DNA of 64,000 bases from Patescibacteria group bacterium (GCA_041662625.1 JBAZSB010000001.1:246467-310466); one strand, 5' to 3'. Shown: positions 1-16,987, counted from the first letter of the stretch. The notes: generated by a model not told the origin, from the letters alone. A program made the numbers and translations.

Positions 1-1222
1 ACTGATCATCATCACCGGATAAAGGCGGTGACGATTTCTTTTTAAAGCCGGAAAAAAGAACCAGAGCTATAACTAAAGTAAAAATTAACCAGACAGTTAG
101 CCAACATTGGGGATAACCCAAAATAGTCGGTCCCAAAACTAAAATTAAGGTAATCCACCATAAATTTTTAGCCAAAGGATTCTTAGTCCTTTTGCCCCGT
201 GACCAGATGGCGATAATCATTAATAAATTTAAAACCAAAAGCAGCCAGATATAGATGAGGCAATTTTTTGAAAGGAAAGACAATTGATCAGTGGAGGTTG
301 TTTCATTCAATGGTTTATTTTGTAATTCTTCTTGTAATTCCCCTAATTCCCCCGCGGCTACTTTGCCAGTTGTTCCGGTTTTCCATTCCGGGCTAGAGAT
401 TGATGAAATTTTTCCTTCAAATTCATCCCCTGCCATTGGACCACCCGTACCGTCGGTTAAAGAGGTGGTAGTAAAACTTAATTCCGAACTGAAAATCCGA
501 GGAGCACCTCGCCATTGTTTTGGATCAGCCAGGGCAATAATCCGAAAGTAATAAGTAGTTTCCGGCTCCAGATTAGTCAGGGTAAGGGTGTGGTAAGTCT
601 TTAGCCCAAAATCTAGTGGCGTAGAACTAGCATAACCAAAATTAATATCGTAAGCGATTAATTTAAGACCCAAAATTGAGGTTTGGTCAAAAACGATTTG
701 GCTTGTAGCCAGGTAATTAGTAAACCAAGTAACTTTGACTGCGGTCGGAGAAATAGTTTCAATTGAATAATTGGAAATATTCATCATTGGGCCCATTCCC
801 CTCTCTTCACGAATTACTTGGTAATTAGCAAAATTAATGATTGCTTTTTCTTCAGCTGATAAACTAACGAAACTGCTGCTGCCGTTTATTGCCGCCCAAG
901 AATTTGGTACCTCAACTTTTACTTGATAATCATCGGGGACAAGATTAGTAAAATCATATTCACCTGCACTATTAGTCAATTGGGTTTTAATTAATTTTTC
1001 TTTTTGGTACAGAGAAACCCGCCAATCAGCTAGCTTTGTTTCATAAAGATCCAAATTGTTATTAAAATTTAGATCTTCAAAAACAAGCCCAGAAACCGCA
1101 CCGGCGGTCTGGGCTTGTAGAGGTTGGACACAAAGTAAAGAAAAGCTAATCAAGAGGAAAGGTAGTCCAACTTGAAGTATTATTATTAACTTTTTAGAGT
1201 AGCTATTAATTGGCCAGTTCAT
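1..1222 (-). CDS. Secreted surface protein, 3'-truncated at the window edge: signal peptide, SdrD-B-like domain, PAP-N-like Fn3 domain and the shared C-terminal two-TM anchor cassette
   Basis: Hand translation from ATG (rc at 1220-1222) gives MNWPINSYSKKLIIILQVGLPFLLISF...VSGLVFEDLNFNNNLDLYE...TVKVTWFTNYLATSQIVFD...TYYFRIIA...KNCLIYIWLLLVLNL...YPQCWLTVWL. There is no stop before position 1. The C-terminus is homologous to those of ORFs 1261..7479 and 7710..9059. Confidence 0.6.
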   Translation of the reverse strand, partial: MNWPINSYSKKLIIILQVGLPFLLISFSLLCVQPLQAQTAGAVSGLVFEDLNFNNNLDLYETKLADWRVSLYQKEKLIKTQLTNSAGEYDFTNLVPDDYQVKVEVPNSWAAINGSSSFVSLSAEEKAIINFANYQVIREERGMGPMMNISNYSIETISPTAVKVTWFTNYLATSQIVFDQTSILGLKLIAYDINFGYASSTPLDFGLKTYHTLTLTNLEPETTYYFRIIALADPKQWRGAPRIFSSELSFTTTSLTDGTGGPMAGDEFEGKISSISSPEWKTGTTGKVAAGELGELQEELQNKPLNETTSTDQLSFLSKNCLIYIWLLLVLNLLMIIAIWSRGKRTKNPLAKNLWWITLILVLGPTILGYPQCWLTVWLIFTLVIALVLFSGFKKKSSPPLSGDDDQ

Positions 1223-1260: not shown

Positions 1261-4200
1261 TTATTTTTTACCAGAAAGAGTATTTGGGCTGACCAGTAAA
1301 ACGATTAAGTAGATAACCGCCAAAACTAGAATGACTGCTAGCCAGGTAATCAACCAGCATTGAGGATACCAGATTATTACGGAAACAATAGCAATTAGCG
1401 CCGGAACTAACCCGGAGTATTTGACTGATTTAGTACCATTTTTGCCCTTGAAGGCAATGATTGCTGAGGCAATTAAATCCAGAATAAGTAAGAGCCAGAT
1501 ATAATTACTGCAGTTTTGCGTTGTAGCCGCTGGGGGTGTGGTTTCATCAGTAGTTTCGCCCAGTACGGTCCCTTCTTCAGCTGGCTGTTCAGCTGGCGGA
1601 GTGGGTGGAGTTTCTGTGTCGGTTGGAGTTGTTTCTTCTTGATATTCAACTCCAGCAACATTACCACTTGGATTAGCAGGCGTTCCTTCAGCTGGTGGAG
1701 GAGGAGTTGTCTCTTCGGTTGGTGGGACTTCTTCTGTTGGCGGAATTGCCGGTGGCACTTCCTCTAAAGTGAAGGTTAATTCATCGCCATAGACTTCAGG
1801 CGAAGCGGCTGAAAGTGGCCGGAAATAATAGACTGTAGCTGGTAATAAACCGGTAATTGTAACTGAATGATTGAGAACTTTGGGATCAGTATCAGTTGTG
1901 GCAGTTGACCAGGCATAGCCATAATTTGGTGCATAGCCAATAGCGGGATGGGAAACTAAATCATAGATTACCCGACTGGTAGCTTCGCGGTTAGTCATCC
2001 AAGTTACGGTTACTGAGCCAACTTCAGCTCCTCTGGTTAATCTAATGGTATGAATAAGCAAGCTATAAGGAGTACTACCGCCACCGCCACCTCCGCCACC
2101 GCCGCTGCCACCGCAAGCACCACAGTCGGCAGGACAGGCAGAGCAGGTTTCATTGCCGTTGCAAGAGCCATCTTCACAATATGGTTCGGTTTGATTGCAG
2201 CCTTCGTCAATGTTACTGTCGCAATCATTATCAATGCCGTCGCCACAAACTTCAGTAGCGCCCGGGTTTATACCTCTATCAGAGTCATTGCAGTCGTTAC
2301 CGTTCGGGCAGTAAGCTTCATTATAGACGGAATAAGTATCTTCATCAGCATCAACACATTGGATATCATGGCATTCATTGTTTTCACAATATTGACCCGT
2401 GCTGCAATCCTCATCAGTATTACATTCCGGACCAATCGATTCAGTACATAAGCTGATAGTATAAATGTCACCACCACCCTGGCCAGCACCATCGTCCCGG
2501 ATATCGATCTTATAAGAGCCATCCCAATTAACTGTTCCCCGACCAGCTAATTTAGTGAATGAATCAAGCTGATTGATAGCAACCGTAAGAGAACTTTGGC
2601 CATTAATTAAATAATTTGAATCCTGTAATAAGCTGATTGGATAAGAAACGCCATCAATTTTTATAATATCCCACCAATCTTGCGAACAATTATCATGAGA
2701 GCCGATTGGACTATAGGTTCCGTGACTTAATGATAACTGCCCGCCAGTTACTGTTAGCCAATCGCTACCATCAACGCAGGCTTGGAATTCAATGCAATTG
2801 CCTGTCTGGTTTTGGACTAACACGCAAGCGGATGTGCAAGAATAATTTTCATTTGGTACTCCATCTTGTCCATCGCACTCTTCATTGCCATTATCTTGCG
2901 GTCCGCCGGTGCCAACACCATTGGGTGTTTGCTTAATGCCATCACCGCAGAAAGTTTGGTAATTAAAGAAGTTTATTCCACCAATTCCTTGGCCATCAGC
3001 CAAAGTGACATCCTGAGATAACGGGGTGGTATTAAGCCAGCCAGTAACTAATTCTTCATAAATCGTCCAGATACCGGCAGTCAAGGCATTAAAGCAATAT
3101 AACCCGCTATCGTTAGTTTGAGTCGAGCTTAAGGTGGTATCTTTAGACGCCCAAATTGTCCAGGCTGGGATGACTACATCATTATTATTAAATATTCCAT
3201 CTCGATCATAATCATTATATTTATAACCGCAGATACTATTGGGTTCAATATCCCCTAGCCAATCATTGCCGAAATTAACATAAACGGTTTGTTCTGGAAC
3301 AGCGGTTACATCCTGAAATAAATCAGTGATATTCTTCCAACCCGGCTGCATCTCTTCCTGAACTCGGTAATTACCTGGCGTGACATCTTCAAAGCAGTAA
3401 TTTCCACCTTCGTCAGTTACCCGGTAGTCAATAATGGTTTGGTCGGTAGCGCAATGTAAAGCTTGGACACCGTCGACATCAAAACCATCAGTCTCGGCTC
3501 CGAATATTGTGGCAAACTTATTGGAAGTGTCAGTTAACTTTAAGTATTTAGCCCAAGCCAGACTACCTAAATCAAAAGTGCTGTCTTGGCAACCTTCACC
3601 AGCTAGTTCAACCCAGCTACTACCGTCTTGAGAAGCGGAAACTTTGACTTTTTCCGGATAGCTGGCGCAGCTGGGACTGCCATATGAAGTTTCAACTACA
3701 TCAATGTCATCCCCTGCTTCATTAAGAATTAAATTATCAAAGCTTAAAACCAGTTCACCGCCAAAGCCCAAAGCAACAAATTCAACCGGATCGCTATTGG
3801 AATATTGAGCCGCTCCTAATGCTTTAGAAGGATCGGTTCGTTCAGTGATAATTGGTGTACCATTTTTTCGTGTGCCGGGATTATAGCTAACCACGCCATC
3901 GGCCCATTGTTCACCTTCAGTACAGAAAGAAAACTCGATTAAATTTATAGTCCAATTTGCCAATCCGGGTTCTTCATCACGCTGTCCGTTTTCATTCTGG
4001 TCATGCCATTTATAACCGCAAATTGAGCTTTCGCAATCCTCGTCAACATATCCGTCGCAATCATTGTCAAGCTCGTCGCCACAAAATTCTTTTTCGCCTT
4101 CAGTTGGCACGGCGGAACAAACTGCCGGACCAGCTGGATCTTGCGGGTCGCAAGCGTAAGTACCACTTTGTTGGCAAATGCCTTGGCCGGCAATACATTC

Positions 4201-7200
4201 ACTGCCGACGTTCCAGCCTTCATCAATTAAGTCATCACAGTCATTATCAACGCCATCGCAGACTTCAGTGGTACACTCCGGCGGAGTGGGAATACAGCGG
4301 ACGCTGACATTATCTAAAAATGTGCCTAAAGAATTAGAAGTACCGCCGTCAGCAAATTCCAGCAAAGTTGTATAGCCACTGGCGGTTAAATTATATTGAT
4401 AAGGTGACCAGTTCAGACTACTGCCGCCAGCACCGGTAAGCGTAGAAACTAGGTTACCATCCCAGTTAAAATTCAAGACGTTATCACTGCTGCCAGTATT
4501 TGGTCGCGGTGAAAAATTGAAACTGACTAAATAGTTATAACCGGGCCAAGTGTTTAATTCCTGAGAAATTTTCACTGAAGCCGGTTCGCCATCGCCAGAA
4601 CCATTAGGGCCGGCCCAATCGCCGTCTAATTCAACATATTGGCTGCCATCAGGAATCAAACCGGAGAATAAACCTGATCGATGTAATTCTAAAGTCGCTT
4701 CAGTTGGTCTGGTCTGGCCTGGATAAGAATCAGAAGAAACCCAATCGGTAATCCAACTGGTTAAAGATGGAAGAAATATATCCCATTTGTTGGGGTTAGT
4801 AACAATTGGGTTTTCAAAACTACGGTTAAGCACTAACTCAACATCCGGATCACAGGTTGGCGGTAAGCCACATTCGGGCGAACATTCAAACGAACCGTTT
4901 GGCCCGTCATCGCAGTCTTCATCGCCTTCTTTAATATAATTGCCGCATTCTGGGCATTCTTCGGAATAAGGAGATATGGCCACACCTTCGCTTGTAAAAT
5001 TAAAGGAGAAATGAGATTGGACTGTATGGCGTTCGGCAAAAAAGATGTCCACTACATTATGGCCAGTCAAATGTAAACTGCCGGTTTTAGTGGTTGGGGC
5101 ATGAATGCCGCCATTATCAACGACTAAAACGCCGTCTAGATAAACCCAGGCATCATCATCGGAAGTCAGAGTATAATTATAATCTCCTTCAGTCTCAACT
5201 GAAACTAAGCCGCTCCAGTGAGCACCGAAATGATATTCATGGCCATTATCGATTTCTTCGACTGCTATATCAAAAGGAAAGAAATTTTCACCAAAAGTTA
5301 TAGCATTATCAATTCTTGTAAATTTTAAATATTGTGAATCATACCAATCATCGGTATCCCAGCTACCCAGCGGATCGCCATGACCGTCATCCGGCCATTC
5401 ATTGCCAGGCAAGTTCATATCCTGGTGATCTCTTGAATAATTATAATATTGGCCATACCAGCCGCTGCCTTCAGTTAGCTCTTCACAAGTTAATTGTTCA
5501 AGGCTGCAACTGGCAGAACAACCATCACCATCAGCAATATTGCCATCATCGCAAGTTTCATCACCTTCAATTTCATTATTACTGCAAACTGGTCCGGTTG
5601 GCTGACAGGTCGGATCGTTAGCACAATCTGAATCAGCACAATCAACAAAAGTATCGCCGTCATTATCTATGGTATCAGTACAATTTTGTTCTGGTTCAAT
5701 GGTGCAATTTTCGGAACAGCCGTCGCCGTTAACAGTATTGCCGTCATCGCAGGCTTCATTGCCTTCAAGGGCATCATTACCGCAAACGCTTGGAGTCGGA
5801 CCAGTACAATCAGAATTACAATGGCCATAGACGCCGTTATATTGACTGCCATCATCACAGATTTCCCGACCATTAACTGCCCCATCACCGCAACTTTGCG
5901 TTGTTATACAACTTCCCCACTGACATTCATTGCAGGCTTTACTGCCATTATAACCAGTTTCGGTAAGACATTCATCTGGGGTTTGTTGGTCACAATTTTC
6001 TGATTGTTGATTAACAATATTATCACCGCAATATGGTACATATTCTAAAGTACAGCTTTGGGTACAAATATAATGCGGGGGTACGCCATCAAGGGTATCG
6101 CATTCTTCATCGCCGTTTTTGGTTCCATCGTTACAGCCTTCCTGGGCAACACAATTGCTCCAGTCCAGACAATCTGATTGGCAGGTTTTCTGACCGGCGT
6201 AAGCACCAACAGAACAAGTGTCAGTTTGGCCAACTTCGCAAACTTCACTGTAACCTGGGTAACCCTGATCTAAAATATTATTATTACAAATTGGTAAATA
6301 GTTACCAAAATCTTTATTGGTTAAATTCTGGCCTTCGCTCAGGGTAACACTGTATGATCCGCTTACCGGATAGGTTTGTTGGTAAGGCTGACTGCTCGGT
6401 TCAGCTCCTTCAGAGACAGTATAATTGCCCGGCAATAAACCAGAGAACTGATAACAACCATTACTGTCAGTCACTTGGTTATCCGAGGTATCGCCGCTTA
6501 AAACAATTGGCCAACCAACTAAGGTGCTGTCGCCGGTAATGCTGCTGTCTTTGGCTACATCAGAATATTTACAGCCAGAGATTGAACCATACTGACAGAT
6601 CTCTTCAGAGATTGAATTGTAAATACTTTCTAGATCAGTTTGACTGGGGGCAAAATAATAACTGCCACCAGTAGCGTTAGCAATATATTGCAGCATGGTG
6701 GTGTTAACATCGCTGCCTAAACCAATGGTAAATATTTTGTAACCTAAACCGGCGGCTTCGTCAGCTTTGGCTTTGGCGTAATTAACATCAGCTTGATTTT
6801 CACCGGAGCCACTGCCATAAGGTTTATTGGCTTTGCCGTCAGTCAAAAGAATTGCAACCTTAACCGCTTGCGGATTAGCCCGAACTGAACCTAGCTCATC
6901 GTTAGACAAATCAATACCGTCACCAATATTGGTTGCACCATTAGCCGCTAAAGCATCAACGGCGATTTGTGTTGCCGGATGATCAGTTGATAAACCTTTA
7001 TCCAAATTTGCTGTGGTAGCAAAAGAAACTAAACCAGACTGGTCGTTGAGTCCCAGCAAACTTAGAAAGGTATCGGCAGCGCTTTTAGCGGCGGCTAATT
7101 TATTTGGCGTAGGTGGTACTGCTGGCGTGTAATTATGAGGACAGCTAGCTACACCTTGATTGTTACATTCAGTCTGAGTTAATCCATTTTTGGTGTGTTT

Positions 7201-7479
7201 ATTCCAGCAACCCCATAAATCACTTTTATTTTTATAATATTCACATTTACTTTGGCTACCCGAACTACCACCTTCGTCCATACTGCCTGACCGGTCAATA
7301 ATCAATACAACGTCAAGGTCAGCATCGCACATGCTTGGCGGCAACGGCGTAGCGGAAACTGCTGTTGGTATAAAGGCGGCACCATTAACCGACCAGAGAA
7401 TGGTAACCAAAGAAACAAAAATAGAAAACATTTTGTGTTTTCTAGGCTTTGAATAAGTGGGTTTTCCCATAGTTTGCAT
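1261..7479 (-). CDS. Giant (2072 aa) secreted multidomain adhesin-like protein: vWA, Cys-rich Myxococcus-type and MopE-like repeats, SdrD-B-like, DUF642/CBM-like, PA14, poly-Gly, PAP-N-like Fn3, Pro/Thr/Glu stalk and C-terminal two-TM anchor
   Basis: N-terminal signal peptide. vWA MIDAS motif DRSGSMDEGG. PA14 motif GDYNYTLTSDDDAWVYLDG (about nt 5040-5300). SdrD-B-like SICGYKYNDYDRDG and GYKWHDQNENGQRD. MopE-like motif NPGATEVCGDGIDNDCD. Myxococcus-type repeat ...CDDGN..GDGCS..C. DUF642-like NRSFENP...QYVELDGD. Fn3 TVTWMTNREATSRVIY...TVYYFRP. C-terminus NCSNYIWLLL...YPQCWLITWL. Confidence 0.85.
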   Translation of the reverse strand: MQTMGKPTYSKPRKHKMFSIFVSLVTILWSVNGAAFIPTAVSATPLPPSMCDADLDVVLIIDRSGSMDEGGSSGSQSKCEYYKNKSDLWGCWNKHTKNGLTQTECNNQGVASCPHNYTPAVPPTPNKLAAAKSAADTFLSLLGLNDQSGLVSFATTANLDKGLSTDHPATQIAVDALAANGATNIGDGIDLSNDELGSVRANPQAVKVAILLTDGKANKPYGSGSGENQADVNYAKAKADEAAGLGYKIFTIGLGSDVNTTMLQYIANATGGSYYFAPSQTDLESIYNSISEEICQYGSISGCKYSDVAKDSSITGDSTLVGWPIVLSGDTSDNQVTDSNGCYQFSGLLPGNYTVSEGAEPSSQPYQQTYPVSGSYSVTLSEGQNLTNKDFGNYLPICNNNILDQGYPGYSEVCEVGQTDTCSVGAYAGQKTCQSDCLDWSNCVAQEGCNDGTKNGDEECDTLDGVPPHYICTQSCTLEYVPYCGDNIVNQQSENCDQQTPDECLTETGYNGSKACNECQWGSCITTQSCGDGAVNGREICDDGSQYNGVYGHCNSDCTGPTPSVCGNDALEGNEACDDGNTVNGDGCSENCTIEPEQNCTDTIDNDGDTFVDCADSDCANDPTCQPTGPVCSNNEIEGDETCDDGNIADGDGCSASCSLEQLTCEELTEGSGWYGQYYNYSRDHQDMNLPGNEWPDDGHGDPLGSWDTDDWYDSQYLKFTRIDNAITFGENFFPFDIAVEEIDNGHEYHFGAHWSGLVSVETEGDYNYTLTSDDDAWVYLDGVLVVDNGGIHAPTTKTGSLHLTGHNVVDIFFAERHTVQSHFSFNFTSEGVAISPYSEECPECGNYIKEGDEDCDDGPNGSFECSPECGLPPTCDPDVELVLNRSFENPIVTNPNKWDIFLPSLTSWITDWVSSDSYPGQTRPTEATLELHRSGLFSGLIPDGSQYVELDGDWAGPNGSGDGEPASVKISQELNTWPGYNYLVSFNFSPRPNTGSSDNVLNFNWDGNLVSTLTGAGGSSLNWSPYQYNLTASGYTTLLEFADGGTSNSLGTFLDNVSVRCIPTPPECTTEVCDGVDNDCDDLIDEGWNVGSECIAGQGICQQSGTYACDPQDPAGPAVCSAVPTEGEKEFCGDELDNDCDGYVDEDCESSICGYKWHDQNENGQRDEEPGLANWTINLIEFSFCTEGEQWADGVVSYNPGTRKNGTPIITERTDPSKALGAAQYSNSDPVEFVALGFGGELVLSFDNLILNEAGDDIDVVETSYGSPSCASYPEKVKVSASQDGSSWVELAGEGCQDSTFDLGSLAWAKYLKLTDTSNKFATIFGAETDGFDVDGVQALHCATDQTIIDYRVTDEGGNYCFEDVTPGNYRVQEEMQPGWKNITDLFQDVTAVPEQTVYVNFGNDWLGDIEPNSICGYKYNDYDRDGIFNNNDVVIPAWTIWASKDTTLSSTQTNDSGLYCFNALTAGIWTIYEELVTGWLNTTPLSQDVTLADGQGIGGINFFNYQTFCGDGIKQTPNGVGTGGPQDNGNEECDGQDGVPNENYSCTSACVLVQNQTGNCIEFQACVDGSDWLTVTGGQLSLSHGTYSPIGSHDNCSQDWWDIIKIDGVSYPISLLQDSNYLINGQSSLTVAINQLDSFTKLAGRGTVNWDGSYKIDIRDDGAGQGGGDIYTISLCTESIGPECNTDEDCSTGQYCENNECHDIQCVDADEDTYSVYNEAYCPNGNDCNDSDRGINPGATEVCGDGIDNDCDSNIDEGCNQTEPYCEDGSCNGNETCSACPADCGACGGSGGGGGGGGGSTPYSLLIHTIRLTRGAEVGSVTVTWMTNREATSRVIYDLVSHPAIGYAPNYGYAWSTATTDTDPKVLNHSVTITGLLPATVYYFRPLSAASPEVYGDELTFTLEEVPPAIPPTEEVPPTEETTPPPPAEGTPANPSGNVAGVEYQEETTPTDTETPPTPPAEQPAEEGTVLGETTDETTPPAATTQNCSNYIWLLLILDLIASAIIAFKGKNGTKSVKYSGLVPALIAIVSVIIWYPQCWLITWLAVILVLAVIYLIVLLVSPNTLSGKK

Positions 7480-7709
7480 AGGTTTTTGAGATAATTTAGG
7501 TAAAATTAGTAAAAATATATAATAAATAGCTTGTTTCTCTTTCTACCATATTTACTCATAATTTGTCAATAGAGAGTATTTTTATAGCTAAAAACTGATT
7601 AATTTGAAACAAAATTTGAAAAATTAGTTTTTAACCTGAAAAACCATTTCTCAAAAATGGCTTAAAAATAATAATGATGAATAATAGCCAAAGCTAGTAA
7701 TAATTAAAA

Positions 7710-9059
7710 TTATTTTTTACCCAAAAGAGTATTGGGGCTAGTAAAAAGAATAATTAAATAGACAACCGCTAGGACTAAAACTATTGCTAACCAAGTAACC
7801 AGCCAGCATTGAGGATACCAGATTATTACTGAAACAATAGCAATTAGCGCCGGAACTAACCCAGAGTATTTGACTAGCTTATTACCATTTTTACCTTTAA
7901 GGGCAATAATTGCCGCTGTCACTAAATTCAGAACAAGTAAAAGCCAGATGTAATTAATGCAATTTTTTGGCGTAGCGGCTGGCTCTTCTTCGGTAGTTTC
8001 GGCAAGAACTTTCCCTTCTTCTTCAGTCGGCTGCTCCTTTCCGGTAACTACTGTGGAAGTCGGCGTTATTTCTTCTTGAAAGCCAACCCCAGCTACTGTA
8101 CCAGCCGGATTGGTTGGCGCAGTTGGGTTGCCAGATATTGGCGGAGTTTCAGCCGGCGGCAGGGTTTCTTCTGCCGGTGGAACTGGTAATCCAGCTGATT
8201 CGCCTGTAGTTTTGAAAGTTAAACTGCGGCTGACCGTATCAGGCGAAGCGTGGGAAATTACGCGATAATAATAAGTTGTGCCGGGCGTTAAGCCGGTCAA
8301 AGTCACGGAATGAAAAGTAACTTTGGTTAAATCATCAATCGTTGAATGGGCATAACCGTAATTCGGTGGACTGCTGAAATCAAAAGTGTGCGCTTCATTT
8401 TCCGCGCCCCAAATCACCCGGCTGGTAGATAAATAATTAGTCTGCCAAGTGAGTGTCGCCGTAACAGTCATAACATTAATTTCCGCTTCATTGAAAATCG
8501 TCAGACCGGCTGGCACACTGCCACCACCACCGCTACCGCCACCAGCTCCTCCACCGCCGCCTTGGCCGGGCGGAGTAACGGGTGTCTGCTCGCCTTGAAA
8601 ACCGACTAAGATATCGAAATTATTCAAAATTTTATTTTTGTAATCATTGCCGGCGCTGGAATTAAAAGTCACTATTAAATCATAAGTTGTACTCGCGTTG
8701 TTTGCCAAATTGGATAAAAATGTCTCGCCTTGATTGAAAAATTCAGTTAAACTTTTATTTAGAATCGTTTGGCTCCCCTCTTTTATTTCTAAATTTAAAG
8801 CATTGCCAAAATGATTTGGGTCATTGACATTAATCGCTTCAATAGCCAAGGGCTTTGATACGCCGCTTTTGTTTTTAATTTCAATGTGAGCGGTTACTGC
8901 TTGGCCGGGCAAAAAATTCACCGCGCCAAAAAGCGGATTGGGATTAAAGATGACAACTATATTACTTTCGGTCGCTAAAACTGGGCCGGCAAACATAAAT
9001 CCGGCTATCAGGGCAATAGCGGTAATTCCGATAAATTCTAATTTTTTTATTCTAAGCAT
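7710..9059 (-). CDS. Secreted surface protein (449 aa) with signal peptide, Gly-rich linker, PAP-N-like Fn3 domain, Pro-rich stalk and the shared C-terminal two-TM anchor
   Basis: The signal peptide, GQGGGGGAGGGSGGGG linker, Fn3 segment TLTWQTNYLSTSRVIWG...TTYYYRVIS and the C-terminal 85 aa are about 85% identical to the giant protein at both protein and DNA level. Confidence 0.8.
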   Translation of the reverse strand: MLRIKKLEFIGITAIALIAGFMFAGPVLATESNIVVIFNPNPLFGAVNFLPGQAVTAHIEIKNKSGVSKPLAIEAINVNDPNHFGNALNLEIKEGSQTILNKSLTEFFNQGETFLSNLANNASTTYDLIVTFNSSAGNDYKNKILNNFDILVGFQGEQTPVTPPGQGGGGGAGGGSGGGGSVPAGLTIFNEAEINVMTVTATLTWQTNYLSTSRVIWGAENEAHTFDFSSPPNYGYAHSTIDDLTKVTFHSVTLTGLTPGTTYYYRVISHASPDTVSRSLTFKTTGESAGLPVPPAEETLPPAETPPISGNPTAPTNPAGTVAGVGFQEEITPTSTVVTGKEQPTEEEGKVLAETTEEEPAATPKNCINYIWLLLVLNLVTAAIIALKGKNGNKLVKYSGLVPALIAIVSVIIWYPQCWLVTWLAIVLVLAVVYLIILFTSPNTLLGKK

Positions 9060-9070
9060 ATTGATTATTT

Positions 9071-11596
9071 TTAAGCGGCAGGAGCAGCGTCAGTCGGCGC
9101 TGGTGGCGCTGGATCAGGACCGGGAGCGGACTCTACTGGCGCGGGCGGCTCAACCGTAATCGCCGGCTCCGGCTCAAGGGCCGGATTTTGTTCGCTTAAT
9201 TCCGCCGGGGTATCCGGAATATTTTCCGTAGTATCAGCCGGCTGGTCGTTAGAATCGCCGGTTTCATTGCTAAAATTGTCTGCGGGATTATCAGCGGGCA
9301 GCTCAGGTTCAGTCACCAAACCGGTATGATCAGCTGGATCAGTAATAGTAGTTTCTTCTTCCGGCACGGTTGTTTCCAAAGGTGTATCAGTTGGTGGTTC
9401 AGCTACTGTTTCAGCCGCCTCCTGACCGGAATTATCACCAGTATTTCCCGAATCGGCCGGGATCTCAATGGCTGGCTCGGTATTACCGGTATCGGCCGGC
9501 GGATCAGTATTTTCCGGGGTAGTTGTTGCTTCATCTTGTGTTATTATAGGCGTTTCAAAAATCGATGGCTCTTCAATCGGGAACAACTCCATCCCTTCTG
9601 GCAGCAAGCCCAAAAATCTCAGCATTTCTATTTCTTCGGGCAAAAGCAAACCGTAATCAATGGGCGGACAAAAATCTTGGTCTGATTGATCCCAGGCCTG
9701 AACCATAAAGTTTTCCGGCCCATGGGCCACCACCTTAACTCTGGCTGTATGCGAAGGCGCATAATAACAACCGCCATTACCGTCATCAAAGCAAAGCGGC
9801 ACCCGGAAATCATAAGTTCCGCTATTATTGATTCCTCTCACGACATTACCCCAAGTGGCACCACTATCTTTGGAATACCAAAGGTCAATAGTTAAAGCGG
9901 AATCAGGGCCGTTAGGATTGGTTGCGGTCCAGCTTATATTATGGGTTCGGCCCACCCACCAAATTTCGCCGCCATTAGGCGATAAAACCGTAACTTGGGG
10001 CAAACCTAAATCGATGAAATCCGACGGCTGATCCGTATCAAGACCCAAAGGCACTCGGCCCAGCATATGGCCTTCTGTCACATCCGTGCAGCCAGGATCC
10101 CAAACGTTTAAATTGTAGTTTGGCCAATCTGAATCAGGCGCGCCCCAGTTCATCTGATCAATAATTTTGCCGGCGGGATTTTTTAAAATAAGCATGTCGG
10201 CGGTGTTGTTGAGGCTATTGCCGATTGGGCTACTTAAAACAATTCTGGTAACACCAGTGGGAATTTCCCAATAATTCCAGGTAGTATCTTGATTAGTAAT
10301 AATGGCAAAGCCGCCGGCGGGAATTAGAGTAGAATCTGGTAAAATATCGCAAGCGTTATTGTCGCAAATTTTCCAATTTGATAAATCAACAGAACCAGAG
10401 GCCGGATTATAAAGTTCAATCCACTCGTTGTCAGCTTCATCACCGTGGCTTGAATCCACATCATAATAAACTTTATTTATGGCCACATAACTCCAGTCAC
10501 CGGAGGAAACCGTATCAGCAATTGTTTCTTCATCGGTAAAACCTTGGCTTTCGTTGGTAAAATCCGTCTGCCAACCAAAAACAGTATATTTGAATTCGCA
10601 GGTTTTATTTTGCAGTGAAGAAGGCGCATCAGCTGGCAAGCCGATATCTAGCTGCCATTCATTGGTTAAAATTGAAAAGATGCTTGGCGTGTAAGTAAAA
10701 TCCAGTAAATTTCCCGAGTATACTAAAGTTCCGTTAAGGTAAGCATCAACATCAAGGGCTTGGCAAAAATCAGTGTCGCCTGATGTTTGTTCGATATTCA
10801 TCTGATATTGAAAATTCAAAAGGCCGATATTAATAATATCAATCCACCGCCCGACAGATTCGTCAGGTGTTATTTTTCGGGTTAGGCCGTCATCAAATTT
10901 GTTATTAATTTCATCAATGCAGCCATTGATAACCGACGGACTGAAAACGCTTAGTTGTCCGGCTAATATATTATTGGCTTCAGTCAAAACTTCGCCGGCC
11001 GTCATGTCTTCGCACGGACTGGCTGGTTCGTTGGCATAATAATTTTCCAGCGTGCTGGTGTTGACGCTAAAATTGGGATCATAAACGTCAAAGCCGAGGT
11101 TAAGCGTTAGGGCAACAACTTGGCCGGCCAAGACTCCGGCTTCGGTATCAGTCGGGTTTTCATGGTTTTGCGAAAATGGCGCCGGTGGTCCCCCGCTTGG
11201 CAAAAAATTTTCTATATCCGCGCTGGTTGCAAAATGGGCAGAATAGCCAAACCCCCCGCCGATAGTCAAACCAGTGGGAAAGGCCAGATCAAAATTAGCG
11301 TCGCGGTAAACGGCTGGGTTATCACCATGAGCAGAGGCTCCCCAACCGCCTTGGGTTTGGGTGCGAAAGCCGTCTGAGCGGGTAAAATCCAAAGAAAAAT
11401 CCAGGGTACTGGCGGTAAAATTACCATCTGAAGTTTCCAAATCGTTATAATAGGCAATGGTCTGACCAATTGCCGAAAGTCCGGTCCAATTAAGGCCAAA
11501 CAATAACAAAATCGCTACTACTTTTAATAATGGTTTTTTTACCAAATCAAAATTAGTTTGTTTTTTCTGGATTTTTCTTTTTCTTGATTTCCGCAT
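9071..11596 (-). CDS. Secreted 841-aa protein with camelysin/TasA-type (SipW-cognate) N-terminus, lamin-tail domain, BNR/Asp-box and an acidic Pro/Thr/Glu-rich C-terminal tail
   Basis: N-terminus ...LSAIGQTIAYYNDLETSDGNFTASTLDFSL matches the camelysin-type mature N-terminus. LTD motif EWIELYNPASGSVDLSNWKI. BNR motif SKDSGATWGN. The start overlaps the sipW-like ORF by 44 nt, so an alternative TTG/GTG start is possible. Confidence 0.7.
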   Translation of the reverse strand: MRKSRKRKIQKKQTNFDLVKKPLLKVVAILLLFGLNWTGLSAIGQTIAYYNDLETSDGNFTASTLDFSLDFTRSDGFRTQTQGGWGASAHGDNPAVYRDANFDLAFPTGLTIGGGFGYSAHFATSADIENFLPSGGPPAPFSQNHENPTDTEAGVLAGQVVALTLNLGFDVYDPNFSVNTSTLENYYANEPASPCEDMTAGEVLTEANNILAGQLSVFSPSVINGCIDEINNKFDDGLTRKITPDESVGRWIDIINIGLLNFQYQMNIEQTSGDTDFCQALDVDAYLNGTLVYSGNLLDFTYTPSIFSILTNEWQLDIGLPADAPSSLQNKTCEFKYTVFGWQTDFTNESQGFTDEETIADTVSSGDWSYVAINKVYYDVDSSHGDEADNEWIELYNPASGSVDLSNWKICDNNACDILPDSTLIPAGGFAIITNQDTTWNYWEIPTGVTRIVLSSPIGNSLNNTADMLILKNPAGKIIDQMNWGAPDSDWPNYNLNVWDPGCTDVTEGHMLGRVPLGLDTDQPSDFIDLGLPQVTVLSPNGGEIWWVGRTHNISWTATNPNGPDSALTIDLWYSKDSGATWGNVVRGINNSGTYDFRVPLCFDDGNGGCYYAPSHTARVKVVAHGPENFMVQAWDQSDQDFCPPIDYGLLLPEEIEMLRFLGLLPEGMELFPIEEPSIFETPIITQDEATTTPENTDPPADTGNTEPAIEIPADSGNTGDNSGQEAAETVAEPPTDTPLETTVPEEETTITDPADHTGLVTEPELPADNPADNFSNETGDSNDQPADTTENIPDTPAELSEQNPALEPEPAITVEPPAPVESAPGPDPAPPAPTDAAPAA

Positions 11597-12071
11597 AAAT
11601 TTTTCTGGCTTCGTCGAAAATTATAGCTAAGGCCGGCACGATGATTATTAGCAGGAATCCCAGCGGTTTTCTGGCAAAATCAACGGCATAACCGGCAAAG
11701 GGAACGGAAAACAGAACTTTGCCGTGAATCTCGGCTGGCGTAACCTCTCTGGTATCTGGCGCGTTATTAGCGTCGCCCTTGGTGATATAAATCGGCTTAC
11801 CTTCCTGAACGCGAATGTCATTAATCCGGTGGGTAATCGGCGTTTGGGTTTTACCGATTTTGCCGAAAGTAATGATGTCGCCGATCTGATAATTAGTTGC
11901 CGGCTTTACCATTACAATACTGCCGGTATGAATTGCCGGCTCCATTGAACCGGAAAGCACAGTCAGAACCTTGAAATTACCGGTCAGGGGCAAAATCGAA
12001 ATCACCAAAAGCAAGGCGATCGCCGCAATCAGCGCAATAAATATGTAATAAACAACTTTAAAGATTTTCAT
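11553..12071 (-). CDS. sipW: Signal peptidase I, ER/archaeal type (SipW class, S26B)
   Basis: N-terminal TM helix followed by VLSGSMEPAIHTGSIVMVKP (SGSMEP catalytic-Ser motif of Sec11/SipW-type SPases). Size 172 aa. Sits directly adjacent to camelysin/TasA-like genes, as in Bacillus tapA-sipW-tasA. Confidence 0.8.
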   Translation of the reverse strand: MKIFKVVYYIFIALIAAIALLLVISILPLTGNFKVLTVLSGSMEPAIHTGSIVMVKPATNYQIGDIITFGKIGKTQTPITHRINDIRVQEGKPIYITKGDANNAPDTREVTPAEIHGKVLFSVPFAGYAVDFARKPLGFLLIIIVPALAIIFDEARKIYAEIKKKKNPEKTN

Positions 12072-12095
12072 GGATTTTCATGGATTATTTTATTC

Positions 12096-14111
12096 TTACC
12101 AGCCAAAATCTGGTAAATCTGGTGGCCAATCAATTGTACAAGTCGGATAATTTAGTCCCGGCATATAGCAAATACAGCCGGTTTGACCGGTATTGGGATC
12201 ACAATATCCATACGATGAACTTGTGCAAGTAGGCAGGATTGTAGGATTATGCGCACAACCAGCTATGCCGCAAATGTCGGCTGTACAGGCGTTACTGTCA
12301 TCGCAATTATTCGGACAATTTGGATTGAGGTTGCAGCTGACTACGCCGGCGCTGCAAGTACCGCTAAATGTGCATTGTAAAGAAACTAAGCTCACATGCT
12401 GGCAAATGGTTGCCGAGCAGGAATCAGCAGTACAGCTGTTATTGTCATTACAATCGGCACTGGAAGTGCAGCCGCCCGGAGGAATTAGTGGCGCAATGCA
12501 TGCTCCAATTGCGCTGCAGGTATATCCGTTGCAACCGCCGCCTAACATACAGGTTAAATTTGAGCACGATGCGCCCACATTGGGACTTGCCTCGTAAACA
12601 CAGCCCCACATGTCTCCGCCCGCGCCGATGCAAGTCGATAATAGACAGGAATTCATCGCCTGGCTAGCGCATATATTATTACTCGGCGTATGAACGCAGC
12701 TGCCATTCACGCAAGTATCAACAGTGCAAGCTACGCCATCATTATTACAATCGTTATTACTTGTACATTCAGGCGCTGGTGGCAGACAATCGGCCGCACA
12801 GGTGGCAGTCGTTTCCGAAGGCGAGCAAGTGCCATCCGGACAGACCGGGTTACAATCTAAACTATTTAGAAAACAACCATAATCAGCGCAATCGATTTGG
12901 CCATCACCTTCATTGTCTATACCGTCATGGCAGTTAGTTTCCGGGCTGCAAACGCCATCTTCATCAGTTGCGCCATCACAGTCATTATCAAATGAATCAC
13001 AAGCTTCCACACCGTTGTTTGTCGGGGTGCAATCACTGCAATTATTATCAGTACTACCGTCGCAATCATCGTCTAAGCCATTGTCACAGATTTCAGTTCC
13101 GGCTTGATTATTTTGCGTACATTGAAGCGCCCCGCCAGTACAAGTTAAAGTTCCAGCTGAACAAACACCCGATAAGCCCGTGTTGCACACGCTTCCGCCG
13201 CCTGGATTTCCTTCATCAACAACTTGGTCGCAATCATCATCTAGGCCATTACAGACTTCTGTGGTTGGCGTGCAAGTGGGCTCGCATGCTAAATCGCTGC
13301 CGTTACAATCTTCATCAATATCATTGCCGCAGATTTCGGTTGTCGGAGAGCAGCCGCCGGTAGCGTTACAAACAAATTGGGGCAAATTTCTGGCTTGAAC
13401 CGCGGTAAAGATAATATCCGCTAGTAAACTGTCAGTTTGGATTTCATTGCCGGTGGCCAAAGGCACATTCCATTTAACGCCCAAACAATGAGTAGTGCCG
13501 CCTTGCATTGGCGCGCCTAAAGATGAATCGGCAATCGGCCAGTAACCCGCCTGGACGGTCTGGTTTTGAATTACATAAGTTTCGTCTTCATCTTTGATAT
13601 TATTACAATTATGCTCACCGGCTCCGTTATCGTTCCAAATTGTGAAAAATAAATTATTTTGCAGTTCACCTTCGCCCGCGCCGCAGGTGGAGTCAACCTT
13701 GTTTTCCGGACTGTCGCAACCGTTGTCATCTTTAACTAAATTGGCAATTTCGGCGCACATCCAGGCGTCATTATTATCCACGTGCAAGCTGATAGTGTCT
13801 TCACCACTATCCCCGGGCTTAACATCCAAAAGATTAAAATAAAGTTCACCATTCAAATCTTTGGCTGACCAGGTACAGAAACATTCCTCTTGTGTCCCCT
13901 GCCAGAAATACTTTCCTGATCCGCTCGGATCTAAAATGCAAACTTTGCCGTTGTAATGGCAGGTGTTATCAATTTGTAAATTGAATTTTCCGGCTTTAAA
14001 AGTATTTCCGACTGAGCTTTCGGTGTCGGAAAAATAGGCAATGGTTCCGCCAATGGCAATGGCAGCCACAATTGCGATGACACCGAGACTGATTACGATT
14101 TTTTTCTTCAT
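12096..14111 (-). CDS. Camelysin/TasA-like domain (Peptidase M73 family) fused to a long C-terminal Cys-rich MopE-like repeat region
   Basis: MKKKIVISLGVIAIVAAIAIGGTIAYFSDTESSVGNTFKAGKFNLQID is the SipW-cognate signal plus TasA-like N-terminus. Residues ~250-671 carry repeated C..DxDCDG..DE motifs (CGNDIDEDCNG, CNGLDDDCD, CDNGLDDDCDG, CDSFDNDCDG). Confidence 0.8.
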   Translation of the reverse strand: MKKKIVISLGVIAIVAAIAIGGTIAYFSDTESSVGNTFKAGKFNLQIDNTCHYNGKVCILDPSGSGKYFWQGTQEECFCTWSAKDLNGELYFNLLDVKPGDSGEDTISLHVDNNDAWMCAEIANLVKDDNGCDSPENKVDSTCGAGEGELQNNLFFTIWNDNGAGEHNCNNIKDEDETYVIQNQTVQAGYWPIADSSLGAPMQGGTTHCLGVKWNVPLATGNEIQTDSLLADIIFTAVQARNLPQFVCNATGGCSPTTEICGNDIDEDCNGSDLACEPTCTPTTEVCNGLDDDCDQVVDEGNPGGGSVCNTGLSGVCSAGTLTCTGGALQCTQNNQAGTEICDNGLDDDCDGSTDNNCSDCTPTNNGVEACDSFDNDCDGATDEDGVCSPETNCHDGIDNEGDGQIDCADYGCFLNSLDCNPVCPDGTCSPSETTATCAADCLPPAPECTSNNDCNNDGVACTVDTCVNGSCVHTPSNNICASQAMNSCLLSTCIGAGGDMWGCVYEASPNVGASCSNLTCMLGGGCNGYTCSAIGACIAPLIPPGGCTSSADCNDNNSCTADSCSATICQHVSLVSLQCTFSGTCSAGVVSCNLNPNCPNNCDDSNACTADICGIAGCAHNPTILPTCTSSSYGYCDPNTGQTGCICYMPGLNYPTCTIDWPPDLPDFGW

Positions 14112-14142
14112 AGATTTTTGCTGATTGAAAATTTAAATTAAA

Positions 14143-14169
14143 ATATTTGGTGGCTGCCTTAGTCTCACT
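14143..14169 (-). terminator. Hairpin (possible terminator/attenuator) between TasA-like paralogues 2 and 1
   Basis: ggctgccttag-tctca-ctagggcagcc with an A/U-rich tail on the minus strand. Confidence 0.5.
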
Positions 14170-14296
14170 AGGGCAGCCTTTACCCCCACACCAAATAAGT
14201 CTAGTGCATTTTAAACTTATTTAGTGTAGGGGAAAATCCCCTAAGCACTCCCCCTTTCACCAAAAATAATTGGTGTGGGGGTAAATATTTCAAGTA

Positions 14297-15586: not shown

Positions 15587-15637
15587 AGTTTTTGTTGATT
15601 TATTAATTTTTAAAATAATTATTTAAAACCTTTATCG

Positions 15638-15664
15638 GTTGCCTTAGCGAGGCTAAGGCAACCT
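15638..15664 (-). terminator. Hairpin (possible terminator/attenuator) between TasA-like paralogues 3 and 2
   Basis: ggttgccttagc-gag-gctaaggcaacc perfect 12-bp stem with an A/U-rich tail on the minus strand. Shares the gccttag core with the 14143 hairpin. Confidence 0.55.
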
Positions 15665-15688
15665 AAAAGATTTCTAGTATTATCGGTT

Positions 15689-16960: not shown

Positions 16961-16987
16961 ATCGGTTTAATGATTATTGCGGGTTAA

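What the first reader, a model, noticed from the sequence alone, without database searches (positions are those of the whole stretch)
1261..7479. 2072-aa multidomain giant adhesin with a vWA MIDAS, PA14, SdrD-B, DUF642-like and two classes of Cys-rich repeats
A single ORF encodes a signal peptide and a vWA domain (DRSGSMDEGG) at the start. Many Myxococcus-type Cys repeats (CDDGN..GDGCS) and MopE-type repeats (NPGATEVCGDGIDNDCD) follow. Two SdrD-B-like domains, a DUF642/CBM-like domain (NRSFENP...QYVELDGD) and a PA14 domain (GDYNYTLTSDDDAWVYLDG) come next. The shared anchor cassette closes the protein. This combination of eukaryote-like adhesion modules in a small low-GC genome suggests host or partner-cell attachment. 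Codon-level poly-Gly tracts (GGSGGGGGGGGGS) are potential slippage sites.
Basis: partly seen in the sequence, partly recalled or inferred. Interest (0 to 1): 0.6.

Follow-up and report, generated by a model that had tools for sequence, protein, structure and literature searches.

The report
Modular surface adhesin with unusual membrane anchor
This is a real 2072-residue cell-surface protein of an ultra-small Patescibacteria (Buchananbacteria-like) bacterium, built from shuffled binding and stalk modules like many relatives, and its one unusual feature is a rare, undescribed three-helix membrane anchor shared with its two neighbouring genes.

Summary
The ORF (window 1261-7479, minus strand, 2072 aa, no internal stops) and every quoted motif are present. 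HMM scans pass curated cut-offs for VWA (complete MIDAS), PA14, SdrD-B, myxo/DUF4215 and MopE Cys repeats, and an FN3-like domain. The DUF642 match is below cut-off.

- There are three SdrD-B domains, not two.
- The second SdrD-B is split by a nested discoidin/CBM32-like domain.
- A ~125-aa segment has no detectable relatives.
- The poly-Gly tract is a conserved hinge of mixed GGT/GGC codons, so any slippage would be in-frame.

The protein is already in NCBI (MFA6254638.1, "VWA domain-containing protein", 922-kb Patescibacteria MAG contig). It belongs to a large, mosaic Patescibacteria family.

The most distinctive part is the "shared anchor cassette": Gly hinge, FN3-like domain, Pro/Thr/Glu linker, then three transmembrane helices with two invariant cysteines 51-52 residues apart. 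Only 51 of 1.84 billion representative proteins carry this anchor. It is always C-terminal, and every named case is Buchananbacteria or Patescibacteria. No Pfam or NCBIfam model covers it. Close relatives of the VWA head end in LPXTG-like signals instead.

Best reading: a membrane-anchored, disulfide-stiffened stalk carrying several lectin-like modules and a distal MIDAS head. Adhesion is inferred, not shown.

The parts
1261..7479 (-). Whole ORF, 2072 aa plus stop; identical to NCBI MFA6254638.1 (2069 aa, start called 3 codons later) and to a 2072-aa IMG gene model
7351..7479 (-). N-terminal signal-like segment (aa 1-43): basic n-region KPRKHK, hydrophobic core aa 17-38, AVSA|T-type site. Cleavage is predicted by eye only
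   Evidence: (hydropathy) and sequence inspection; no SignalP available
6601..7317 (-). VWA domain (aa 55-293) with complete MIDAS: D62-x-S64-x-S66, T183, D214
   Evidence: VWA 51-59 bits against cut-off 23.8; alignment to BatA-like VWA 4rck shows DxSGS, GxT..IG, LLxDG
7108..7278 (-). ~57-aa four-Cys insertion (C79, C91, C105, C113) between the MIDAS DxSxS strand and helix 1 of the VWA. Many Patescibacteria relatives have it and some lack it
   Evidence: Pfam/PDB matches restart at aa ~124-126; relatives with and without the insert
6295..6582 (-). SdrD-B / prealbumin-like domain 1 (aa 300-395)
5485..6291 (-). Cys-rich repeat block 1 (aa 397-665): myxo_disulf_rpt / DUF4215 / acidic double-disulfide repeats
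4975..5472 (-). PA14 domain (aa 670-835); the fibro-slime model is below cut-off
4846..4962 (-). Single Cys-rich repeat spacer (aa 840-878)
   Evidence: weak DUF4215
4294..4845 (-). DUF642 / choice-of-anchor-C-like beta-sandwich (aa 879-1062). Below Pfam cut-off but homologous to the neighbouring ORF 14297-15586, which passes
4030..4284 (-). MopE-type Cys/Asp repeats (aa 1066-1150)
3256..4023 (-). SdrD-B domain 2 (aa 1153-1408), split into an N-terminal strand pair and the remainder by a nested domain
   Evidence: SdrD B-repeat aligns to profile positions 3-36 and 194-232
3451..3924 (-). Nested discoidin / F5-8 type C / CBM32-like domain (aa ~1186-1343) inserted in SdrD-B domain 2
   Evidence: F5_F8_type_C 19.7 bits, below cut-off; AF2 pLDDT 88.5, pTM 0.81; Foldseek matches 3f2z, 4pqq, 2kd7 and CBM32 domains; probabilities 0.92-1.00, TM about 0.35-0.54 on target length
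2956..3240 (-). SdrD-B domain 3 (aa 1414-1508)
2815..2952 (-). Cys-rich repeat (aa 1510-1555)
2431..2814 (-). Orphan ~125-aa segment (aa 1556-1683). It is an insertion relative to P0126 and has no detectable family
2116..2430 (-). Cys-rich region with the best MopE repeat (aa 1684-1788)
2077..2115 (-). Gly hinge GGSGGGGGGGGGS (aa 1789-1801), mixed GGT/GGC/GGA codons. First element of the shared cassette
1765..2067 (-). FN3-like domain (Pur_ac_phosph_N, aa 1805-1905)
1513..1764 (-). Pro/Thr/Glu-rich linker (aa 1906-1989) with conserved motifs GNVAGVEYQ and GTVLGETTD
1264..1512 (-). Three-helix membrane anchor (aa 1990-2072) with invariant C1990 and C2041 (NCxxYIW ... YPQCWL)
7710..9059 (-). Upstream paralogue (449 aa, NCBI MFA6254639.1) carrying the same Gly hinge, FN3, linker and 3TM cassette
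2..1222 (-). Downstream paralogue (over 407 aa, runs off the window): SdrD-B plus FN3 plus the same anchor
   Evidence: homologue scanned

Best explanation
The gene encodes a membrane-anchored, extracellular, multi-module binding protein (an adhesin-type fibril) of a Buchananbacteria-like Patescibacteria cell.

Proposed mechanism, with each step marked as shown or inferred:
1. The N-terminal signal-like segment directs Sec export. This is inferred from sequence.
2. The C-terminal cassette holds the protein in the cytoplasmic membrane through three helices. The acidic linker lies outside. The Lys-rich TM1-TM2 loop and the C-terminal tail lie inside. The two invariant cysteines sit at the outer ends of TM1 and TM3, where they could form a disulfide. 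The helices and the invariance are shown. The topology and the disulfide are inferred.
3. The Pro/Thr/Glu linker, the FN3-like domain and the Gly hinge carry the passenger through the wall or S-layer. This is inferred.
4. Ninety-two cysteines in knot-like repeats, plus three SdrD-B/prealbumin domains, form a stiff stalk. The domains are shown. The stiffness is inferred.
5. Lectin-like modules are displayed along the stalk: PA14, a DUF642-like domain and a discoidin/CBM32-like domain nested in an SdrD-B domain. A MIDAS-complete VWA domain sits at the distal N-terminal tip. The domains and the order are shown. Ligand binding is inferred from what these families do elsewhere.

The protein is one product of extensive module shuffling. 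Its VWA head, PA14 unit, body and anchor each have their closest relatives in different proteins.
For: - The ORF is intact and all modules are in one frame.
- HMM matches are above curated cut-offs for VWA, PA14, SdrD_B, the Cys repeats, MopE and the FN3-like domain.
- The MIDAS residues are all present.
- Hydropathy finds one N-terminal and three C-terminal hydrophobic segments.
- AF2 models the anchor as three helices at pLDDT 73.7.
- The anchor family alignment has exactly two invariant residues, both Cys, spaced 51-52 aa in most of the 47 members measured.
- The anchor is always at the extreme C-terminus, in proteins of about 400 to 1900 aa with unrelated passengers.
- The nested discoidin-like domain is supported by the split SdrD alignment, a confident AF2 model and Foldseek matches to discoidin/CBM32 and SdrD/UafA.
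- Mosaicism: aa 1-663 is ~50% identical to P0016, P0006 and P0005. The PA14 unit is ~47-50% identical to P0150 and P0141. Residues 1145-1570 are 59% identical to P0126.
- The genomic neighbourhood is a block of exported proteins: two further cassette genes, an LTD protein, a SipW-like peptidase and four TasA-type-signal proteins.
- Large Cys-rich extracellular proteins of CPR bacteria have been proposed to mediate attachment (PMC4736985).
Against: - There is no experimental or expression evidence, and no ligand or host is known.
- Signal-peptide cleavage and membrane topology were not tested with dedicated predictors. Only hydropathy and the positive-inside rule support them.
- The AF2 anchor model is of moderate confidence.
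- The DUF642 and F5/8-C HMM matches are below cut-off.
- The PA14 sugar-binding residues were not examined.
- One 125-aa segment is unassigned.
- The full-length sequence rests on one assembly. The independent contig L003 confirms only the first ~160 codons and breaks there.
Confidence: 0.7

Rival explanations
1. The protein is a glycan- or particle-binding surface scaffold, or a biofilm-matrix component, rather than a host-cell adhesin. It would capture polysaccharides, or tether the cell to sediment or matrix. It might work with the adjacent TasA-like fibre genes processed by the SipW-like peptidase.
For: Three of the four putative binding modules (PA14, DUF642-like, discoidin/CBM32-like) belong to carbohydrate-binding folds. 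The cluster includes a SipW-like peptidase and four TasA/camelysin-signal proteins. No catalytic domain was found.
Against: It cannot be told apart from host adhesion by sequence, because a host envelope is also made of glycans. The MIDAS VWA at the distal tip is more typical of protein-ligand adhesins. All cultivated Patescibacteria are episymbionts (PMC12206443 abstract).
Confidence: 0.2
2. The C-terminal cassette is not a permanent anchor but a sorting and processing signal. The ectodomain would be cleaved in the linker, for example at the conserved G-T-V-A-G-V-E-F/Y motif, and then shed or transferred to the cell wall.
For: A short motif is conserved inside an otherwise low-complexity linker in 32 of 50 family members. 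Sortase-anchored relatives carry VLG[AE]xLPxTG at the equivalent place. The module is shared by several paralogues per locus, as true sorting signals are.
Against: No candidate processing enzyme was identified next to the genes in the window, L001, L002 or L005. Three helices with many conserved positions are far more than known sorting signals need. No sortase motif is present in this protein.
Confidence: 0.1
3. The long ORF is an assembly chimera that joins a VWA-head gene to a P0126-like body.
For: Head and body have their best relatives in different proteins. An independent contig (L003) ends inside the gene at about codon 160.
Against: - The reading frame is continuous over 6.2 kb, with domain boundaries respected.
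- NCBI and IMG hold the same gene on a 922-kb contig.
- Other family members combine a VWA with the same FN3 and anchor: P0152/P0173 is named as a VWFA domain protein and P0156 as a VWA domain-containing protein.
- Mosaicism is the rule across the family.
- Contig breaks in repeat-rich genes are common.
Confidence: 0.03

Closest known systems
SdrD / MSCRAMM-type adhesins of staphylococci (and UafA)
   Same: Both use SdrD-B (prealbumin-like) repeats as a stalk below a ligand-binding head on a monoderm cell surface. The PDB profile search and Foldseek hit SdrD and UafA directly.
   Different: This protein has no Ig-like A-region for dock-lock-latch binding, no Ser-Asp repeat and no LPXTG signal. 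The head is a VWA domain. One B-type domain carries a nested discoidin-like domain. Anchoring is through three membrane helices.
VWA-headed Gram-positive pilus tip adhesins (RrgA, GBS104, SpaC) and integrin I-domains
   Same: A MIDAS-complete VWA domain sits at the end farthest from the cell. The comparison with these proteins comes from general knowledge and was not tested here.
   Different: This protein is not a pilin. It has no pilin motif or sortase signal and appears to be a single polypeptide fibril. Its VWA carries a 57-aa four-Cys insertion right after the DxSxS strand.
Large cysteine-rich extracellular proteins of CPR bacteria (Peribacteria; Anantharaman et al. 2016, PMC4736985)
   Same: Both are large signal-peptide proteins with Myxococcus-type Cys-rich repeats, encoded in small CPR genomes, clustered, and proposed to mediate attachment.
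   Different: The lineage differs (Buchananbacteria-like Parcubacteria). This protein has 4.4% Cys, compared with about 7% there. The domain set and the C-terminal cassette were not described in that paper.
Patescibacteria 'VWA domain-containing / DUF4215 / lamin-tail-domain' surface protein family (automatic annotations in NCBI and IMG)
   Same: The head (aa 1-663) is 40-50% identical over more than 600 aa to more than 100 such proteins. Many also end in Gly hinge, FN3-like domain, acidic linker and TM segment.
   Different: Most of those relatives carry LTD domains, which this protein lacks, and end in LPXTG-like signals or other TM tails. Among the retrieved relatives, the combination of PA14, DUF642-like, split SdrD-B, orphan segment and 3TM/2Cys anchor is seen in full only in this protein.
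C-terminal protein-sorting signals (LPXTG/sortase, PEP-CTERM/exosortase, PGF-CTERM/archaeosortase)
   Same: A conserved module at the extreme C-terminus is shared by several otherwise unrelated exported proteins of one genome. It follows a low-complexity linker and is restricted to one lineage.
   Different: This module has three helices of about 83 aa instead of one, and two invariant Cys instead of a short signature motif. No partner enzyme was identified, and no curated model matches.

Membership tests
VWA domain (PF00092) | HMM score above the gathering cut-off | tested here: met
   51.2 bits on the whole protein and 58.7 bits on the segment, against 23.8
VWA domain (PF00092) | Complete MIDAS motif: DxSxS ... 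T ... D | tested here: met
   D62-R-S64-G-S66, T183 (GATNIG) and D214 (LLTDG) align to the same motifs in PDB 4rck
VWA domain (PF00092) | Metal-dependent ligand binding | not testable with these tools
   Requires biochemistry
PA14 (PF07691) | HMM score above the gathering cut-off | tested here: met
   44.4-48.3 bits against 24
PA14 (PF07691) | Ca2+/sugar-binding loop residues, as in Flo/Epa lectins | not tested
   No structure model was made for this domain
Fibro-slime domain (TIGR02148) | Score above the NCBIfam cut-off | tested here: not met
   37.8 bits against 45. IMG nevertheless names the gene 'fibro-slime domain-containing protein'
SdrD B-like domain (PF17210) | HMM score above the gathering cut-off | tested here: met
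   72.6 bits against 29.7, three stretches. The profile hits SdrD B-repeats in the PDB
DUF642 (PF04862) / choice-of-anchor C (TIGR04362) | HMM score above the curated cut-off | tested here: not met
   19.2-24.1 bits against 27, and 42 bits against 120. Homology to the DUF642-positive neighbour (E 2e-14) supports the fold but not formal membership
Myxococcus Cys-rich repeat (TIGR02232) / DUF4215 | HMM score above the cut-off, repeated | tested here: met
   60.9 bits against 20.8, three stretches. DUF4215 scores 27.8 against 27
Cu-binding_MopE (PF11617) | HMM score above the cut-off | tested here: met
   40.4 bits against 27, three stretches. Copper binding itself was not tested, and the family name says 'putative'
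F5/8 type C / discoidin / CBM32 | HMM above cut-off, or the fold | tested here: inconclusive
   The HMM scores 16-19.7 bits against 28.2. The AF2 model (pLDDT 88.5) matches discoidin/CBM32 domains with Foldseek probabilities 0.92-1.00, but TM is only 0.35-0.54 on target length
LPXTG sortase substrates | LPXTG-like motif, then a hydrophobic stretch and a basic tail at the C-terminus | tested here: not met
   No such motif occurs in the last 150 aa. Relatives P0004, P0006, P0032 and others do have it
3TM/2Cys C-terminal anchor (undescribed family defined here) | Extreme C-terminal position, three hydrophobic helices, invariant Cys before TM1 and in the Y-P-x-C-W-L turn, 51-52 aa apart | tested here: met
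   No Pfam or NCBIfam model reaches its cut-off

The most novel reading that the evidence does not exclude
The Gly-hinge, FN3, linker and 3TM/2Cys cassette may be a lineage-specific protein-sorting or anchoring system of Buchananbacteria-like Patescibacteria. In this reading it would be analogous to the LPXTG/sortase or PEP-CTERM/exosortase systems. A dedicated partner would recognise the invariant Cys pair and/or the conserved GTVAGVE[FY] linker motif. The Cys pair might serve as a disulfide lock, a lipidation site or a thioester-type attachment site. The cassette would have replaced sortase signals on shuffled adhesin passengers.
Probability: 0.15. Interest if true: 0.7.

Novelty: new variant of a known kind. 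Interest (0 to 1): 0.4.

Why it matters
How ultra-small Patescibacteria recognise and hold on to other cells or surfaces is largely unknown beyond type IV pili. This locus gives a concrete, testable candidate: a stalk that displays four different putative binding modules.

It also shows that such proteins are built by shuffling passengers onto interchangeable anchors, either sortase signals or a rare three-helix, two-cysteine membrane anchor. That anchor is a compact sequence signature. It could be used to list the surface proteome of this lineage, and it might point to an unrecognised anchoring mechanism.

The protein as a whole is an ordinary member of a large, automatically annotated family.

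Tried and rejected
- Exact-sequence contig look-ups for the ORF and for P0001 found nothing on record.
- The orphan segment (aa 1556-1683) gave nothing in the word-index homologue search. That search also missed the protein itself, so this negative is weak. PDB phmmer gave only E > 0.4, PHROGs gave nothing and Pfam gave nothing.
- A scan of metagenome contigs for the DNA flanking the poly-Gly tract, meant to compare tract lengths between assemblies, found no match.
- The 40-sequence anchor alignment was too diverse for locus scanning. The three-sequence alignment found only one GTDB genome locus and six metagenome loci.
- A homologue search with the anchor profile returned only two proteins.
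- Foldseek of the anchor model against the PDB gave no match below E = 2.8.
- Sub-threshold hits of anchor sequences to DUF7649 (24.3 bits against 27, one sequence) and to the NCBIfam 'invert_tail' model (11-13 bits against 37) were treated as hydrophobic noise.
- The promoter and terminator scan was no richer than shuffled sequence.
- Copper acquisition, suggested by the MopE family name, was considered and rejected as a primary function. These repeats are generic Cys/Asp-rich spacers throughout the family, and nothing else in the locus points to metal uptake.
- Recent gene conversion between the two adjacent cassettes was considered. Nucleotide identity is only 74-81% with many synonymous differences, so they are old paralogues.

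Full report
**Observation**

Window 1261-7479 on the minus strand is a single ATG-initiated ORF of 2072 codons with no internal stop. The poly-Gly tract lies at window 2077-2115.

The window is about 41% G+C, and almost all of its genes are on the minus strand. It carries ordinary bacterial housekeeping genes: dnaX, rodA/ftsW, L25, bipA, greA, dnaK-dnaJ-grpE-hrcA and prfA.

The protein is already public. It is NCBI MFA6254638.1, 'MAG: VWA domain-containing protein [Patescibacteria group bacterium]', with the start called three codons later. IMG names it 'fibro-slime domain-containing protein'. Both are on a 922,082-bp contig.

An independent metagenome contig, L003 (Ga0172379_10027320), carries the same SipW-like, LTD and 449-aa genes. 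It is 100% identical over the 723 nt that cover the intergenic region and the first ~160 codons, and then it ends.

**Domain map**

Whole-protein and segment-wise scans give this order:
- Signal-like segment, aa 1-43.
- VWA, aa 55-293.
- SdrD-B/prealbumin domain 1, aa 300-395.
- Myxo-type/DUF4215 Cys repeats, aa 397-665.
- PA14, aa 670-835.
- One Cys repeat.
- DUF642-like domain, aa 879-1062.
- MopE-type repeats, aa 1066-1150.
- SdrD-B domain 2, aa 1153-1408.
- SdrD-B domain 3, aa 1414-1508.
- A Cys repeat.
- An unassigned segment, aa 1556-1683.
- Cys-rich/MopE region, aa 1684-1788.
- Gly hinge, aa 1789-1801.
- FN3-like Pur_ac_phosph_N domain, aa 1805-1905.
- Pro/Thr/Glu linker, aa 1906-1989.
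- Three hydrophobic helices, aa 1990-2072.

All matches except DUF642/choice-of-anchor-C, F5/8-C and fibro-slime exceed their curated cut-offs. The DUF642-like region is 33% identical (E 2e-14) to the neighbouring ORF 14297-15586, which does pass the DUF642 cut-off. The protein has 92 cysteines, or 4.4%.

**VWA head**

The MIDAS is complete: D62-x-S64-x-S66, T183 and D214. These residues align with the corresponding motifs of a BatA-like VWA structure, 4rck.

Between the DxSxS strand and the next helix lies a ~57-aa insertion with four cysteines. Many Patescibacteria relatives have a similar Cys-rich insert at the same place, and others lack it.

**Split SdrD-B with a nested domain**

I built a profile of aa 1150-1415 and seven homologues. 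Its positions 3-36 align to the first strands of SdrD B-repeats, and its positions 194-232 align to the rest. These parts are contiguous in SdrD, so about 158 residues are inserted.

AF2 on this alignment gives a confident model with pLDDT 88.5 and pTM 0.81. Foldseek against the PDB returns two classes of match:
- SdrD, UafA and pilin B-type domains.
- Discoidin, F5/8-C and CBM32 domains, plus the N-terminal domain of galactose oxidase. Examples are 3f2z, 4pqq, 2kd7, 2j1a and 4lks, with probabilities 0.92-1.00 and TM 0.35-0.54 on target length.

This agrees with the sub-threshold Pfam F5_F8_type_C match. The module is conserved in P0022, P0126, P0127, P0141, P0145, P0150 and P0160.

**Orphan segment**

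Residues 1556-1683 are an insertion relative to P0126. They have no match in Pfam, the PDB or PHROGs, and none in the word-index homologue search. The last negative is weak, because that search did not return the parent protein either.

**The shared anchor cassette**

The last ~280 residues recur in the upstream ORF 7710-9059 (57% identity) and in the downstream ORF 2-1222 (31% identity).

I searched a profile of the three anchors against 1.84 billion representative proteins. It found only 51 hits, all at the extreme C-terminus of proteins from about 400 to 1900 aa with very different passengers.

In a 40-sequence alignment the only invariant residues are two cysteines, C1990 and C2041 in this protein. 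They are 51-52 residues apart in most of the 47 members measured, with a range of 50-60. A Trp, a Pro and the Y-P-x-C-W-L turn are nearly invariant.

AF2 models three helices at pLDDT 73.7. By the positive-inside rule, the Lys-rich TM1-TM2 loop and the C-terminal tail face the cytoplasm. Both cysteines would then sit at the outer membrane face. This is my inference, and I could not access the coordinates to measure the Cys-Cys distance.

No Pfam-A or NCBIfam model reaches its cut-off on any of the anchors. The hits are scattered and hydrophobic. No PDB fold matches.

Every family member that carries a source name is Candidatus Buchananbacteria or 'Patescibacteria group'.

The Gly hinge that starts the cassette has 3-12 glycines in 31 of 57 relatives. 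A short motif, G-[TI]-V-A-G-[VA]-E-[FY], is conserved in the linker of 32 of 50 members and remains unexplained.

**Mosaicism and anchor swapping**

Local BLAST of the protein against all retrieved relatives shows a different best relative for each block:
- aa 1-663: P0016, P0006 and P0005, about 48-50% identity.
- PA14 unit: P0150 and P0141, 47-50% identity.
- aa 1145-1570: P0126, 59% identity.

Several of the head relatives end in LPXTG-like sortase signals such as LPATG, LAPTG and LPNTG. Others end in unrelated TM tails. The same type of passenger is therefore mounted on different anchoring devices.

L004 encodes a 1409-aa relative with the same cassette but no VWA.

**Poly-Gly tract**

The DNA reads ggt ggc agc ggc ggt ggc gga ggt ggc ggt ggc ggt agt. 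TRF reports only an imperfect 6/9-nt repeat, with score 35-39 and 71-78% matches. A similar repeat occurs in the upstream paralogue at 8516-8558.

There is no homopolymer run, so frameshift-type phase variation is not expected. In-frame length change is possible and fits the variable Gly count among relatives. Read-level polymorphism could not be tested, and a scan for the flanks in metagenome contigs found nothing.

**Context**

Upstream of the three cassette genes lie:
- An 841-aa lamin-tail-domain protein.
- A 172-aa SipW-like S24/S26 signal peptidase.
- Four proteins whose N-termini carry the TasA/camelysin-type signal (AYFSDTE).

Related contigs (L001, L002, L005) show that the small SdrD-B-FN3-anchor gene is followed by a CAP/SCP-domain protein, a histidine kinase and a response regulator. 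The region is therefore an island of exported and surface proteins. No sortase-like or other obvious processing enzyme for the anchor was seen in these flanks.

**Interpretation**

The best-supported reading is a Sec-exported, membrane-anchored, disulfide-stiffened fibril. It would display three lectin-like modules and a distal MIDAS VWA head, which makes it an adhesin-type protein.

This fits earlier proposals that large Cys-rich extracellular proteins of CPR bacteria mediate attachment (PMC4736985). It also fits the episymbiotic lifestyle of all cultivated Patescibacteria (PMC12206443 abstract).

What is shown is the architecture, the family relationships and the properties of the anchor family. 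What is inferred is the topology, the disulfides, ligand binding and any role in host attachment.

The rivals are:
- A glycan or matrix scaffold working with the TasA-like genes.
- A processed or shed ectodomain.
- An assembly chimera, which is unlikely.

**Novelty and score**

As a whole, this is one more member of a large, automatically annotated Patescibacteria surface-protein family.

Three things are not described in the curated libraries I could query:
- The 3TM/2Cys anchor cassette.
- The discoidin-like domain nested in an SdrD-B domain.
- The orphan segment.

I rate it a new variant of a known kind, with interest 0.4.

Noticed in passing
window 11553-17719 (-): There is a SipW-like S24/S26 signal peptidase (172 aa). 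Next to it are four proteins (12096-14111, 14297-15586, 15689-16960, 16988-17719) whose N-termini carry the TasA/camelysin-type signal MKKI..AIGATVAYFSDTE.S.GNTF.AG. Together they resemble a tapA-sipW-tasA-like fibre operon in a Patescibacteria genome. One of the four carries DUF642 and another carries MopE/Dicty_CTDC Cys repeats.
   Followed up: partly
window 9071-11596 (-): An 841-aa exported protein has a lamin-tail domain (56.6 bits) and a long acidic Pro/Thr/Glu-rich C-terminal tail but no anchor. The same gene is present in L003.
   Followed up: no
proteins P0004, P0005, P0006, P0016, P0032, P0075 and others (relatives of aa 1-663): The closest relatives of the VWA head end in LPXTG-like sortase signals (LPATG, LAPTG, LPNTG, LAGSG) preceded by VLG[AE]. 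This protein ends in the 3TM/2Cys anchor instead, so C-terminal anchor modules have been swapped among homologues.
   Followed up: partly
window 1513-1764 (aa 1939-1947 and 1970-1978) and the linkers of P0121-P0169: A short motif, G-[TI]-V-A-G-[VA]-E-[FY], is conserved inside the otherwise low-complexity linker in 32 of 50 anchor-family proteins, and sometimes occurs twice. Its function is unknown.
   Followed up: partly
L002 782-5915; L001 1302-5983; L005 8847-13476: Synteny is conserved beyond the left edge of the window: a small SdrD-B-FN3-anchor protein, then a 397-aa protein (CAP/SCP domain in L002), then a ~514-538-aa protein (histidine kinase in L002), then a ~123-127-aa protein (response regulator in L002). 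Domains were scanned only in L002; in L001 and L005 the order rests on matching ORF lengths.
   Followed up: partly
L003 (Ga0172379_10027320) 4960-5688, compared with window 6900-7720: An independent metagenome assembly is 100% identical over 723 nt and breaks inside the large gene at about codon 160. The same population was therefore sampled twice, and the gene is hard to assemble.
   Followed up: yes
window 7480-7709 (-): The intergenic region upstream of the gene contains a perfect TTGACA hexamer about 90 nt before the start. An AT-rich hairpin followed by a T-run lies just after the upstream gene's stop. This suggests the gene has its own promoter. No Shine-Dalgarno-like sequence precedes any of the three candidate ATGs. 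The consensus scan did not flag these sites.
   Followed up: no
window 8516-8558 (-): The upstream paralogue has its own imperfect hexanucleotide (GGTGGC-type) repeat encoding GGGGGAGGGSGGGGS at the same junction before its FN3 domain.
   Followed up: no
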